A DNA stretch of 18,440 nt, from the IMG/VR virus record IMGVR_UViG_2534682158_000018; one strand, written 5' to 3'. The position numbers were made by a program. This stretch comes from a virus. Lineage: Duplodnaviria; Heunggongvirae; Uroviricota; Caudoviricetes. Positions 1 through 3,000 of the stretch are shown here, piece after piece; position 1 is the stretch's first letter, and each line of letters begins with the position of its first letter.

Positions 1-3000
1 TTAACGGATCAACATCCAGATCAGCAGACACGCCACCACCGGCACAGCAAAATCCATCAGGCTTGCCACATCCCAAGCACGCGGATCAAAACCGCCCCAC
101 CACGGCATATTCATTCGCTTGCCATGCCCGAACATTTCGATCCAGCGATATTCTGCCTGGGTGTGTTCACGCGCAATGAAGAACGTACAACCGGCTATCG
201 CCCCGTAAATCCAGTTTCCGGTAAAAAGACCAATCAGTACCTGCGCAGCCACAGCACAAAGCGCATGAAGAAAAGGTGTTATATCCATTACTCCTCCTTT
301 ATCCGATATCGCTTTGGGAAGTTGATAACAACTTCAATTCTGACTCAAGTTCATCAACTCTTTCAGTCAGTTTCTGGATATGGTGAATCAGTGGAACAAC
401 CAGACGTTCGTACATTACACCTTCGGCAACAAGGCCATTGCTGGAAATAGCTTCAGGAGCATCATCTTCGTTAGCTGGTCGCCAGTGTACAAACTGAGGG
501 GCCATTTCTCCTACTTCCTCGGCAATCAATCCGTAGAATCCCCAGTCACGCCTGTCATTTTCGCATTGCGACCTGTACCACACAGGGCGCATCCTGAAAA
601 TGAGATCGGCGTGCTCTGAATCTATTGTCTCTACTGAATGTTTATAGCGGATAGACGATGTTGACCGCAGCACAGACGAAATTGCGGGGTCAGGATTAAG
701 ATAAAGGTTTGCCGCCGCTGTAGTCGTGCCCAACCCCCACAAATAAAACGCTTCACGGCCAGTCAGCGGGTAAAAATCTCCACCATAACGACCGCTTTCC
801 AGAGCGTTCACTTCCAGTTTGTTTTTCAGCTTATTATCAACTTCAGTTTTTGTGTATCTGGAGCTGATATCCTGCTTTGCACTGGTCATATCAGTCTGAA
901 GCGTTGATACTTTTCCGTTAATTGAGGAAATATCTTCCTTGGCTTTACTGACATCTCCCTTTAGCGTTTTGATGTCATCAGGAATTACTGTCGATGTAGC
1001 CATTTGTCTCCCTCACATCCAGCCACGAAGTTGATGCTCAACAACAATCGCGTATTTATCGAATATTGACGATTTTTTTGCATCATTAATGATGCGCACG
1101 CTTACAAAATATCCGTCCTCCTTAACACATACCGGCTCGCCATTTTCAGTCAGCTCTCCGGTTTCTTTGTACACGTTACCTATCACGTCAATAAGAATAT
1201 CATCCTGCATCGACTCGTCATCATAATAGCCAATACTCTCCATAAAGGCCGAAAAGTCGGCCCTGTCGGCAAATTTGAGTGTTAAATCTTTCATTAGATT
1301 GACTCCCCCACCTGAGCATCAGTCAATGCCTTGTGCCATATTCTGAAATTCCTGACATGACCAAATAAATGACGTAACCCGGCTGTAGTCTGGCCTCCAA
1401 TACGGATAATTGCGGTGTTCTGAATACAGGACCATGTGGTTTTTGTTTCGCTGGATATATGCCCGTTACTTACTGAGCACGTAGACTGCTCTGACTTTAC
1501 ACGCATCCCCATAACCATTTTTTCAAGCGATGCGTTTTCGTTTACCCGTCTGTTAGCTCCTCCAATATCGCAATAAGGAAATCCGTCGTAATCTGTTGAA
1601 CGACCGAAGCCAAGAATAATAGCCGCTCCGGTTTGATGACCGCCGGTATCAAAAACACGTGGCGCTGCATTTGGCGTTTTATACCAGTTCTTATGTACCT
1701 CACAAAGAACCGTAAAAGGAAGATTATAAAGATTATTCTTAATTGGAACTGTAACTATATCGCTTGCGCGGGTCGCCGCCGTCGCTCCTGATATAATAAA
1801 AGATGATACACAAGGCCCATCTTCTACTTGTGGGGTGGCCAGATAAATATAGTCACCAGATACGGTTGCCCCGCTCTGCTTAGGAGAATACTGTATCTGA
1901 GAGCCTATTTTTAACTCCCCATCAATTGCCTGAATTGTTGCCTCTGCAAAAATCCATCCGGTAGCTTCGTCCTTTCTGACTCTCGCTGTAATTCTTGAGG
2001 CAGCACCGCCTGTCATATTAATTTCAAGCGTTTGTGTATCAATATACGCATCACCAAGAAAAGTTGTTGCGCTACCGTCATATTTATCAAACCGGATACG
2101 CAACCTTACCTGCAGTTCTGTTTTAAAACGACATGAGGTTGTCACGTGTTTATTATCGCCTGAGACATCAACTGACTTTGTTGCAGCAATTGATGCCATA
2201 TTAATGGCTGAGGTTTGCCCAATCAGAGAATCGTTGCAGACAAACTTTCCATAGGTAAAACCAAAACTATCCTTCCCGGTTTCGGGAACATCCATATTTG
2301 ACGATCGCCCCCAACTGGCAGGGTTTTCCGAATTGAGCATGTAGTTTGTTCTTTGCCCCTCAATAAGCAGGCCATCACGTTCAAATCGTGGCTCGTCAAT
2401 GGCAGCCTCTGTCAGCACACCAGATTTGTTAATATAGGTTGCTTTCGATGCACGTTTAAACTTAACAATCTTGTCGCCAGGCATCGTTATTTCATCGTCA
2501 CCAATAACAATTTTTTTATATGATGGCGAAAAGCCCGTAATCATATCCAGCGAATCGTTAAATGGTATCCACACATCAGGCAGCGGCTGTAAGACATATT
2601 TATACGGCTCCGCAGCCTGGCTTGCGTACTCTCTGGCTGCATCTTCGCTTGCTTTAGCTGCCGTCTGGCTTGCTGCCGATGCTTTCGCTGAGTTCGCAGC
2701 CGCTGTTTCGCTCACCTTTGCGTTGGTTTCACTGGTTTTTGCTGCTTTTTGACTGTTAGCTGATGCAGTGGCAGAAGCAGCCGCCGCGCTTGCAGAACCG
2801 GCTGCCGCGCTCTCGCTTTGGGCTGCTGCAACCTGGCTGTTTTTTGCCGCAGTTTCACTGGCTTTAGCATTCGTTTCGCTGGTCTTCGCTGCCGTCTGGC
2901 TGGACTTTGCGTTAGTTTCACTCGTCTTCGCAGCTTTCTGGCTGTTAGCCGCAGCAGTTGCTGATCCAGCTGCTGAAGTCGCAGAACCGGCTGCCGCGCT

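What the first reader, a model, noticed from the sequence alone, without database searches (positions are those of the whole stretch)
1..288. Small membrane protein as terminal gene of the fiber operon: candidate superinfection-exclusion or receptor-modifying moron
orf95 has a near-consensus ribosome-binding site (AAGGAGG, 5-nt spacing), predicted transmembrane helices and a Trp-rich loop. Lambdoid phages often place membrane-acting morons next to tail fiber genes, for example lom in lambda and cor in phi80/N15/HK022. This protein matches neither as far as I can tell: there is no lipobox as in Cor and no beta-barrel character as in Lom. It may be an uncharacterised lysogenic-conversion or exclusion factor.
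Basis: inference. Interest (0 to 1): 0.5.

Follow-up and report, generated by a model that had tools for sequence, protein, structure and literature searches.

The report
Uncharacterised prophage inner-membrane protein gene
The last gene of this prophage's tail-fibre operon really does encode a small three-helix membrane protein from a very common family whose function is unknown; it looks like optional cargo that phages place next to their receptor-binding genes, not a part of the virus particle.

Summary
Window 1-288 (minus strand) is a real gene under purifying selection. It encodes a 95-aa protein with three confidently predicted helices (AlphaFold2 pLDDT 92.9) and a Trp/Arg-rich, highly conserved central segment.

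The protein belongs to PHROG 1443 (function unknown). It matches nothing in Pfam, NCBIfam, PADLOC, PDB sequences or PDB/viral folds. It is not related to Lom, Cor or HK97 gp15.

The family is very common. It occurs in 1900 of 5426 complete E. coli genomes and in 434 IMG/VR contigs. In siphoviruses, myoviruses, P22-like podoviruses and a jumbo phage it sits almost always directly after the receptor-binding gene. Syntenic chromosomal copies exist in Aeromonas and sphingomonads.

In this window it is not a self-contained moron. Its Shine-Dalgarno sequence overlaps the upstream stop codon, and I found no promoter or terminator of its own. In P22-like phage Gally it is a stand-alone unit in the slot between tailspike and integrase.

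Published LF82 RNA-seq shows all three copies at background in LB. Two are induced in macrophages without late genes. The copy closest to this window stays silent.

The best reading is dispensable accessory cargo with a conserved polar pocket at the membrane interface. An exclusion or envelope-conversion role is plausible but untested.

The parts
1..288 (-). orf95 coding sequence (95 aa, ATG at 286-288, stop at 1-3); member of PHROG 1443
293..299 (-). Shine-Dalgarno AAGGAGG with a 4-nt spacer (289-292); its first base is the last base of the upstream stop codon TAA (299-301)
   Evidence: the same junction occurs in 52 of 79 related IMG/VR loci
220..279 (-). helix 1 (aa 4-23), transmembrane; carries near-invariant H8 (98%) and Q16 (83%)
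133..213 (-). helix 2 (aa 26-52): short hydrophobic part 26-39, then an amphipathic extension with the invariant motif R40-E41-x-x-Q44-A45-E46-Y47-R48-W49
40..174 (-). conserved core (aa 39-83): [AG]RExxQAEYRWI ... R58 ... MPWWGGFD ... W72 ... D79 ... P83; Trp/Arg-rich segment at the membrane interface
7..69 (-). helix 3 (aa 74-94), transmembrane; only one residue (R95) follows it
299..1003 (-). upstream gene, 234 aa: coiled-coil N-terminus plus a Peptidase_S74 intramolecular-chaperone domain (C-terminal tail-fibre piece, PHROG 3299)
1013..1294 (-). 93-aa gene, PHROG 1361, function unknown; travels with the Stf-type fibre (88% aa identity in Nonagvirus phage ESCO3)
1294..3672 (-). Stf-like side tail fibre, 792 aa (Prophage tail fibre N-terminal domain, PHROG 1419)
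3687..3706 (-). intrinsic-terminator-like hairpin plus T-run between J and stf; marks the start of the stf-orf93-S74-orf95 sub-operon
   Evidence: a terminator is annotated at the equivalent place in phage 21
3727..7140 (-). J (central tail fibre / host specificity), context only

Best explanation
orf95 encodes a small three-helix inner-membrane protein of an uncharacterised, widespread family (PHROG 1443). It is dispensable accessory cargo at the 3' end of receptor-binding-protein modules, not a virion or fibre-assembly part.

In this prophage it is the last cistron of the stf sub-operon and is translationally coupled to the upstream gene. I infer that it is made late, from Q-antiterminated transcripts. 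It is also made whenever the distal fibre genes are transcribed in the prophage state, as seen for relatives inside macrophages.

The protein carries a nearly invariant polar cluster at one membrane interface: H8, R40, E41, Q44, E46, R48, R58, W72 and D79. The positive-inside rule places this cluster on the cytoplasmic face.

My inferred mechanism is that this pocket binds or acts on a conserved anionic membrane ligand, such as a phospholipid or a polyprenyl-phosphate-linked envelope precursor. This would change the envelope of the lysogen or infected cell, giving a generic lysogenic-conversion or exclusion function rather than a receptor-specific block.

Shown: the gene, the fold class, the conservation, the genomic placement, the dispensability and the conditional prophage-state transcription of relatives. 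Inferred: the topology, the ligand and the phenotype.
For: Real gene under purifying selection:
- 566 homologous clusters, rising to 793 with a profile.
- 460 representatives at 50% identity, all stand-alone proteins of 63-146 aa.
- dN/dS 0.11-0.43.

Structure and conservation:
- AF2 pLDDT 92.9, three helices.
- Over 191 full-length members: H8 98%, R40 99%, E41 99%, Q44 97%, A45 97%, E46 98%, W72 99%, P83 98%, D79 91%.
- K+R count is 5.7 in the central loop against 0.1 in the helix 1-2 turn.

Placement after receptor-binding genes in unrelated phage types:
- Lambdoid Stf modules in E. coli, Comamonas, Pantoea and Chelativorans.
- P22-like Gally and 611R6, between tailspike and integrase; in 611R6 it sits beside an OafA O-acetylase.
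- phiHAP-1, after tfa and before the sheath gene.
- A P2-like Aeromonas prophage.
- Desulfovibrio and Leclercia tailspikes.
- Jumbo phage ACP1, next to a putative tail fibre.

Dispensable:
- ESCO3 has the same Stf/93-aa/S74 module without it. Lambda and HK97 lack it.
- HC6-type phages carry a decayed copy.
- It is a mosaic unit with three different upstream junctions.

Chromosomal syntenic orthologues outside prophages: Aeromonas and sphingomonads.

Expression of relatives (PMC9928086, S1/S4 tables):
- Gally copy log2FC 4.9 (q=1.3e-22) and Perceval copy log2FC 3.0 (q=1.9e-5) in macrophages versus LB, while terminase, portal and J stay at background.
- The Gally copy has an upstream terminator and a promoter-like site.
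Against: - No phenotype has been measured for any member.
- I found no similarity to any enzyme, transporter or exclusion protein by sequence or fold. The ligand and 'envelope' idea therefore rests only on residue chemistry and gene neighbourhood.
- None of the three LF82 copies is expressed above background in LB. The copy closest to this window (Tritos, 96.4% nt identity) stays silent in every condition, although it sits behind a terminator that this window lacks.
- The phage 21 annotation reports a different topology (TMHMM: 2 TMDs, N-in, C-in). That would put the conserved loop in the periplasm.
- The slot after the fibre genes is a general hot-spot for cargo. Adjacency to receptor-binding genes may therefore carry no functional meaning.
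Confidence: 0.4

Rival explanations
1. Classical superinfection-exclusion protein that blocks genome entry of incoming phages at the inner membrane, working like HK97 gp15, T4 Imm or P22 SieA.
For: - It is a small inner-membrane protein encoded in a tail or fibre operon.
- It sits in slots that, from my own knowledge, hold exclusion or conversion genes in other phages: the P2 Z/fun slot and the P22 tailspike-int slot.
- It is found mostly in temperate phages and prophages, often in several copies per genome.
- Intact copies also occur in jumbo phage ACP1. This would be compatible with exclusion during lytic growth.
Against: - No similarity to HK97 gp15 (hhalign probability 0.5%). No match to any Pfam or PADLOC model.
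- The sequence is unusually conserved across gamma-, beta-, alpha- and delta-proteobacteria, and it occurs as a syntenic chromosomal gene. That is atypical for arms-race exclusion proteins.
- The predicted topology leaves almost nothing in the periplasm.
- It is not expressed in LB-grown LF82 lysogens.
Confidence: 0.2
2. Host-fitness factor unrelated to phages: a small membrane protein of cellular origin (ion, metal or stress related) that prophages carry because it helps the lysogen in host-associated niches such as macrophages.
For: - Chromosomal syntenic orthologues exist in Aeromonas (Pirin-FAM-RIO1, near lipid A acyltransferases) and in sphingomonads (ligA-FAM, pnp-FAM).
- The Gally and Perceval copies are induced in DMEM and macrophages, as are Bor and other morons.
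- The conserved His/Glu/Asp/Arg cluster is compatible with ion or metal binding.
Against: - This does not explain the persistent placement right after receptor-binding genes, including in a jumbo phage.
- The CRISPRi text I read on LF82 gut fitness does not mention this gene.
- No homology to a known stress or transport family.
Confidence: 0.15
3. Late lytic-cycle accessory: a holin, antiholin or lysis-timing modulator, or a membrane factor needed for fibre maturation.
For: - Three TM helices and about 95 aa, like class I holins.
- In some siphophage contigs it lies 10 nt upstream of a holin-muramidase-spanin cassette.
- Here it is co-transcribed and translationally coupled with fibre genes.
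- One distant member has a weak Phage_holin_8 hit (E=0.0036).
Against: - There is no charged C-terminal tail; one residue follows helix 3.
- In lambdoid phages it lies at the far end of the late operon from S/R/Rz.
- Phages with the same fibre module lack it.
- Chromosomal orthologues exist outside prophages.
- It is transcribed in the prophage state without late genes.
- Strong cross-class sequence conservation is unlike holins.
Confidence: 0.12
4. Chance ORF or decaying remnant with no function.
For: Function is unknown, there is no curated family, and degraded copies exist in HC6-type phages.
Against: dN/dS 0.11-0.43; hundreds of intact homologues with invariant residues; a confident fold; significant regulated transcription of relatives.
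Confidence: 0.01

Closest known systems
HK97 gp15 (moron-encoded inner-membrane superinfection-exclusion protein; role cited from my own knowledge)
   Same: Small phage-encoded membrane protein embedded in the tail-gene region. Optional cargo.
   Different: No sequence or profile similarity (hhalign probability 0.5%). gp15 is 62 aa, lies between the tail assembly genes and the tape-measure gene, and has its own annotated terminator. orf95 is 95 aa with three helices and a conserved interfacial motif. It has chromosomal orthologues, and here I found no regulatory signals of its own.
Cor (phi80/N15/HK022/T1) and T5 Llp, receptor-blocking lipoproteins encoded next to receptor-binding genes
   Same: Gene position next to the receptor-binding gene. 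Candidate protection against superinfection.
   Different: Those are outer-membrane lipoproteins specific for one receptor (my own knowledge). orf95 has no functional lipobox: IAGC at 31-34 is only 51% conserved and lies inside helix 2. It is an integral helical membrane protein and is conserved next to unrelated fibres and tailspikes.
Lom (lambda) / Ail family
   Same: Membrane protein gene in the J-stf region of lambdoid phages. Relatives such as Perceval and IdasGreatGrand carry both lom and this gene.
   Different: Lom is an outer-membrane beta-barrel. orf95 is all-helical and matches no Pfam family at E<=1 except a chance-level PhoR hit. This window has no lom between J and stf.
O-antigen conversion cargo of P22-like phages (gtrABC of P22, oac of Sf6), located between tailspike and int
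   Same: In Gally and vB_EcoP-611R6 the family sits between the tailspike and integrase genes. In 611R6 it lies beside an OafA-type O-acetylase. From my own knowledge, P22 gtrABC and Sf6 oac occupy this slot. In Gally it has a moron layout and is transcribed in the prophage state.
   Different: No match to GtrA or acyltransferase families. There is no partner glycosyltransferase gene. It is much smaller, and orthologues occur in sphingomonads, which lack LPS (my own knowledge).
Class I holins (lambda S105)
   Same: About 100 aa and three transmembrane helices. Sometimes directly upstream of a lysis cassette.
   Different: No charged C-terminal domain, no dual start, far from S/R/Rz in lambdoid phages, conserved interfacial motif, chromosomal orthologues, and prophage-state transcription.

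Membership tests
PHROG 1443 (function unknown) | Full-length match to the family profile | tested here: met
   E=4.1e-58, residues 1-95 on profile positions 1-95 of 97
Moron (autonomous transcription unit inserted between conserved phage genes) | Own promoter upstream of the ORF | tested here: not met
   No sigma-70-like site on the minus strand within 1.7 kb upstream. The SD overlaps the upstream stop, with a 10-nt gap. This was a simple consensus scan, so a weak or non-sigma-70 promoter is not excluded. In Gally a promoter-like site exists.
Moron (autonomous transcription unit inserted between conserved phage genes) | Own terminator downstream of the ORF | tested here: not met
   No terminator-like site in the 1.1 kb downstream in the identical E. 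coli M7424 locus
Moron (autonomous transcription unit inserted between conserved phage genes) | Present or absent between otherwise related phages; exchanges as a discrete unit | tested here: met
   Absent from lambda, HK97 and ESCO3. The shared nucleotide block covers window 10-300 only in most phage hits. Three different upstream junctions.
Moron (autonomous transcription unit inserted between conserved phage genes) | Transcribed from the repressed prophage | tested here: inconclusive
   LF82 RNA-seq (PMC9928086): all three copies at background in LB. Gally and Perceval copies are up 30-fold and 8-fold in macrophages without late genes. The Tritos copy is silent. There are no data for this exact prophage.
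Cor / Llp-type receptor-blocking lipoproteins | Signal peptide with a conserved lipobox cysteine | tested here: not met
   IAGC at 31-34, but C34 is 51% conserved, there is no basic n-region, and the motif lies within predicted helix 2. H8 and Q16 of the would-be signal peptide are 98% and 83% conserved.
Lom / Ail outer-membrane proteins | Beta-barrel fold and Ail_Lom profile match | tested here: not met
   All-helical model; no Pfam match
Known inner-membrane exclusion proteins (HK97 gp15, T4 Imm, SieB) | Sequence or profile similarity | tested here: not met
   hhalign against gp15 gives probability 0.5%. No Pfam or PADLOC family matches the query or any of 94 diverse members.
Known inner-membrane exclusion proteins (HK97 gp15, T4 Imm, SieB) | Exclusion phenotype (reduced plating of the superinfecting phage with normal adsorption) | not testable with these tools
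   Needs plating and DNA-entry assays
Class I holin | Three TMDs plus a charged cytoplasmic C-terminal tail, encoded with an endolysin | tested here: not met
   Three helices, yes. Only one residue follows helix 3. The family mean C-tail is 6 residues with 0.64 K/R. It is not next to the lysis genes in lambdoid relatives.
GtrA-like / O-antigen modification proteins | GtrA or acyltransferase profile match and partner gtrB/gtrC genes | tested here: not met
   No Pfam match; no such neighbours in this window

The most novel reading that the evidence does not exclude
The family is a previously unrecognised minimal membrane enzyme or ligand-binding module: 95 aa, three helices, and no detectable fold relative. 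It would be of cellular origin. Phages of all tailed morphotypes, including a jumbo phage, would have captured it repeatedly and parked it next to their receptor-binding genes. Its role would be to rewire a conserved inner-membrane step of envelope biogenesis. That would be a new, receptor-independent class of lysogenic conversion or exclusion.
Probability: 0.2. Interest if true: 0.7.

Novelty: new member of a known kind. Interest (0 to 1): 0.45.

Why it matters
About a third of complete E. coli genomes carry this gene, often in two to seven copies. It also occurs in phages of every tailed morphotype and across several proteobacterial classes. Despite this it has no name, no Pfam or NCBIfam family and no fold relative.

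It has an almost invariant polar motif, and two copies in the Crohn's-associated strain LF82 are switched on inside macrophages.

If it turns out to be an exclusion or envelope-conversion factor, it would explain part of the phage-resistance and surface variability that lambdoid and P22-like prophages confer. It would also add a new small membrane protein family to the phage accessory repertoire. If it is only neutral cargo, it is still a useful marker for the end of the fibre module and of the prophage.

Tried and rejected
Searches that found nothing specific:
- Pfam, NCBIfam and PADLOC scans of the protein, and Pfam on 94 diverse members. Only chance-level hits appeared: PhoR, cytochrome b561, Phage_holin_8.
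- A profile search of PDB sequences gave 0 hits at E<=10.
- Foldseek against PDB and BFVD gave nothing at E<=0.001. DgkA appeared only at E=9.3, TM-score 0.39.
- The afdb50 library was unavailable.
- A search seeded with the divergent member P0251 returned only itself.
- A profile search with alignment A2 returned only 'hypothetical protein' names.
- A literature search by accession or PHROG id gave 0 papers. General searches found no characterisation.
- The viral-contig scan with A2 failed because no stretch was conserved enough. I repeated it with A1.

Ideas tested and rejected:
- PhoR N-terminal mimic: tested directly against E. coli PhoR residues 1-120 by hhalign, probability 0.13%.
- HK97 gp15 relationship: probability 0.5%.
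- Lipoprotein or cleavable signal peptide (SignalP note in the phage 21 record): H8 and Q16 in that segment are near-invariant and C34 is not conserved.
- Holin: there is no C-terminal tail.
- LPS-specific modification as the family-wide function: disfavoured because chromosomal orthologues occur in sphingomonads, which lack LPS (my own knowledge).
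Full report
**1. Is the feature there?**

Yes. Window 1-288 on the minus strand is an ATG-initiated ORF of 95 codons, and its stop codon is the first triplet of the window.

The Shine-Dalgarno AAGGAGG lies at 293-299. Its first base is the last base of the TAA stop of the upstream gene (299-1003), so the two genes are 10 nt apart.

Kyte-Doolittle hydropathy shows two hydrophobic blocks, residues 5-38 and 77-94, around a polar centre. AlphaFold2 on a 68-sequence alignment gives a confident model (mean pLDDT 92.9, pTM 0.74) with helices at 4-23, 26-52 and 74-94.

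The Trp-rich segment is real (W49, W63, W64, W72). IAGC at 31-34 fits the lipobox pattern. However, C34 is only 51% conserved, there is no basic n-region, and the motif lies inside helix 2.

The ORF is a real gene:
- PHROG 1443 match at E=4e-58.
- 566 homologous 90%-identity clusters, rising to 793 with a profile.
- 460 clusters at 50% identity, all stand-alone proteins of 63-146 aa.
- dN/dS of 0.11-0.43 among E. coli copies.

**2. Surroundings**

[quoted passage not shown] The order is: head genes, tail genes, J (3727-7140), an intrinsic-terminator-like hairpin (3687-3706), a Stf-like side tail fibre (1294-3672), a 93-aa gene of PHROG 1361 (1013-1294), a 234-aa protein with a C-terminal Peptidase_S74 chaperone domain (299-1003), and finally orf95.

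An identical copy lies in E. coli M7424. There orf95 is the last annotated prophage gene, about 1.1 kb from zinT. A tRNA-like fragment about 360 nt past its stop is probably attR.

Simple scans find no promoter-like or terminator-like site belonging to orf95 itself. Its GC content (51.7%) is higher than that of the three fibre genes upstream (41.8-48.8%) and lower than J (56%).

**3. How common is it, and where does it sit?**

The 300-nt block occurs in 1900 of 5426 complete E. coli genomes, with a median of 2 and up to 7 copies. It is always annotated 'hypothetical protein'. It also occurs in 434 IMG/VR contigs, in 75 deposited phage genomes and in phage-plasmid-sized replicons.

In most phage genomes the shared nucleotide block covers only window 10-300, while the flanks differ. 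Among 79 closely related IMG/VR loci there are three upstream junctions:
- 52 like this window: an S74 gene, a 10-13 nt gap, and an SD overlapping the stop.
- 25 like prophage Tritos: a 346-aa fibre gene, then a terminator hairpin GGGGCCGAGCGCCCC-GTTTTATT, then the ATG.
- 2 like phage 21 and Perceval: a 92-aa gene and a 12-nt gap.

In 23 of the 79, the predicted prophage ends exactly at the orf95 stop.

Outside the lambdoid phages the family again follows the receptor-binding gene:
- P22-like Gally: tailspike, 240 nt, the gene, then int.
- vB_EcoP-611R6: tailspike, OafA O-acetylase, the gene, then int.
- phiHAP-1: tail fibre assembly gene, the gene, then sheath.
- A P2-like Aeromonas prophage, directly after the tail fibre gene.
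- Desulfovibrio and Leclercia elements, after tailspikes.
- Comamonas and metagenomic siphophages, between J or fibre genes and a holin-muramidase cassette.
- Aeromonas jumbo phage ACP1, next to a putative tail fibre.

**4. It is cargo, not a fibre part**

The Nonagvirus phage ESCO3 carries the same Stf/93-aa/S74 module (the 93-aa protein is 88% identical) but has no family member. The same is true of the lambda J-to-int region and the HK97 stf-to-int region. HC6-type coliphages carry only a decayed copy in which the core motif is deleted and an in-frame stop appears.

The family also has chromosomal members that are not in prophages and are syntenic across species:
- Aeromonas: Pirin, the gene, RIO1-like, then two lipid A acyltransferase genes, in five species.
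- Sphingomonads and other alphaproteobacteria: downstream of ligA or pnp.
- Leclercia and Silvania.

**5. What the protein looks like**

Over 191 full-length members the near-invariant positions are H8 (98%), R40, E41 and W72 (99%), Q44, A45, E46 and P83 (97-98%). Next come R48 (93%), R58 (92%) and D79 (91%). The motif is [AG]RExxQAE[Y]RWI ... R ... MPWWGGFD ... W ... D ... P.

By helix register (inference), H8, R40/E41 and D79 lie at the same depth, at one membrane interface. The hydrophobic spans are short, about 14-18 residues.

The central loop holds 5.7 K+R on average, against 0.1 in the helix 1-2 turn and 0.6 in each tail. The positive-inside rule therefore predicts N-in, loop-in and C-out. 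The phage 21 record instead reports TMHMM '2 TMDs, N-in, C-in', so the topology needs experimental testing.

Nothing known resembles it:
- No Pfam, NCBIfam or PADLOC family, for the query or for 94 diverse members.
- No PDB sequence match.
- Foldseek against PDB and BFVD empty.
- Direct profile comparisons with HK97 gp15 and with the PhoR N-terminus were negative.

**6. Expression evidence from the literature**

E. coli LF82 carries three copies: in Gally (GALLYPH_17), Perceval (PERCE_24) and Tritos (TRITO_22). The data come from the RNA-seq tables of PMC9928086.
- In bacteria inside macrophages versus LB, the Gally copy rises with log2FC 4.9 (q=1.3e-22). It reaches a higher level than the tailspike, while terminase, portal and injection genes stay at background.
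- The Perceval copy rises with log2FC 3.0 (q=1.9e-5), together with stf and the 92-aa gene but not J or lom.
- The Tritos copy is 96.4% identical in nucleotides to this window. It stays flat although the two genes upstream rise to log2 7-8.

The Tritos result fits the terminator hairpin that separates that copy from the upstream gene. Some read loss from the MAPQ filter is also possible, because the Perceval and Tritos copies are 95.7% identical.

In Gally the gene has a clear stand-alone layout: the tailspike stop, a strong terminator, an AT-rich spacer with a promoter-like site, then the gene.

This window lacks the Tritos terminator. I therefore infer that orf95 would be co-transcribed with whatever drives the distal fibre genes.

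**7. Interpretation**

The best-supported reading is dispensable accessory cargo encoding an inner-membrane protein with a conserved polar pocket at the interface. It would be made late in lytic growth, and in some prophages under host-like conditions.

The combination of four conserved arginines, three or four acidic residues, one histidine and several tryptophans at the interface suggests that the pocket binds or processes an anionic membrane ligand. This is inference. The persistent position next to receptor-binding genes, and between tailspike and integrase in P22-like phages, suggests an envelope-directed role of the exclusion or conversion type.

The conservation next to unrelated fibres and across bacterial classes, together with the chromosomal orthologues, argues against a receptor-specific blocker. 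It also makes a fast-evolving arms-race exclusion protein less likely.

Three rivals remain open: a classical DNA-entry block, a phage-independent host-fitness function, and a late lysis or fibre accessory role. A chance ORF is excluded.

**8. Novelty and verdict**

The family is catalogued (PHROG 1443; 'putative membrane protein' in phage 21). It is uncharacterised and absent from curated domain libraries.

I rate it a new member of a known kind, namely phage accessory membrane proteins. Interest is moderate. The gene is extremely common, has a striking invariant motif and no fold relative, and is cheap to test. Nothing found here is yet surprising to a specialist.

Noticed in passing
window 3687-3706 (minus strand): A strong intrinsic-terminator-like hairpin (GGGCGCCAGAAATGGCGCC plus a T-run) sits between J and the Stf-like gene. 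This prophage has no lom gene there, unlike Perceval, IdasGreatGrand and lambda. The stf-orf93-S74-orf95 block is thus a separate sub-operon that needs antitermination or an internal promoter.
   Followed up: partly
window 2716-3150: The Stf-like gene contains a 189-nt unit repeated 2.2 times (88% matches), with nested 42-nt and 21-nt periods. It encodes Ala/Ser/Thr-rich KTSETNAK-type repeats. This creates long spurious ORFs in other frames and on the other strand (for example 2712-3380 minus and 2768-3304 plus).
   Followed up: partly
L088 (Tritos) 1801-1815; 25 of 79 IMG/VR loci (L101, L105, ...): One common junction type has a terminator hairpin between the 346-aa fibre gene and the family gene. 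This matches the flat RNA-seq signal of the Tritos copy in LF82 while its upstream neighbours are induced more than 20-fold in macrophages.
   Followed up: yes
LF82 prophages Perceval and Tritos (PMC9928086, S1 table); equivalent to window ~300-3672: Inside macrophages the distal fibre genes (stf 3' part, the 92/93-aa gene, the S74 or fibre gene) are transcribed while J and all other late genes stay silent. This implies an unmapped internal promoter in or near stf that responds to host-like conditions.
   Followed up: partly
L082 (Escherichia phage HC6) 3400-3725: An unannotated, decayed copy of the family lies right after the 859-aa tail protein. The N-terminal helices are in one frame and the C-terminal half in another. 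The REHTQAEYRWI core is missing and there is an in-frame stop.
   Followed up: yes
L091 (Nonagvirus phage vB_EcoS_ESCO3) 2158-5600; window 299-3672: The Stf-like fibre, the 93-aa PHROG 1361 gene (88% aa identity) and an S74 'endosialidase chaperone' gene are shared between this temperate prophage and a Nonagvirus (Queuovirinae) phage. This shows exchange of the fibre module across phage groups. The function of the 93-aa protein is unknown.
   Followed up: partly
L003 7594-7645 (E. coli M7424, about 360 nt beyond the window's first base): A tRNA-like fragment (Rfam sub-threshold hits; ARAGORN finds no full tRNA) lies in the 1.1-kb unannotated stretch between orf95 and zinT. It is probably the attR remnant of the prophage.
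   Followed up: partly
L005, L016, L019, L020, L026 (Aeromonas chromosomes): A syntenic non-prophage orthologue lies between a pirin gene and a RIO1-like kinase gene, about 1.2 kb from two lipid A acyltransferase (LpxL/LpxM-like) genes on the other strand. This is a weak hint of an envelope-related role.
   Followed up: no
P0271-P0274, P0291 (about 190-194 aa, from metagenome assemblies): Several database proteins of about 190-194 aa contain the whole 95-aa sequence at 89-95% identity. They are probably mis-called fusions with the upstream 92-aa gene. I did not check them.
   Followed up: no
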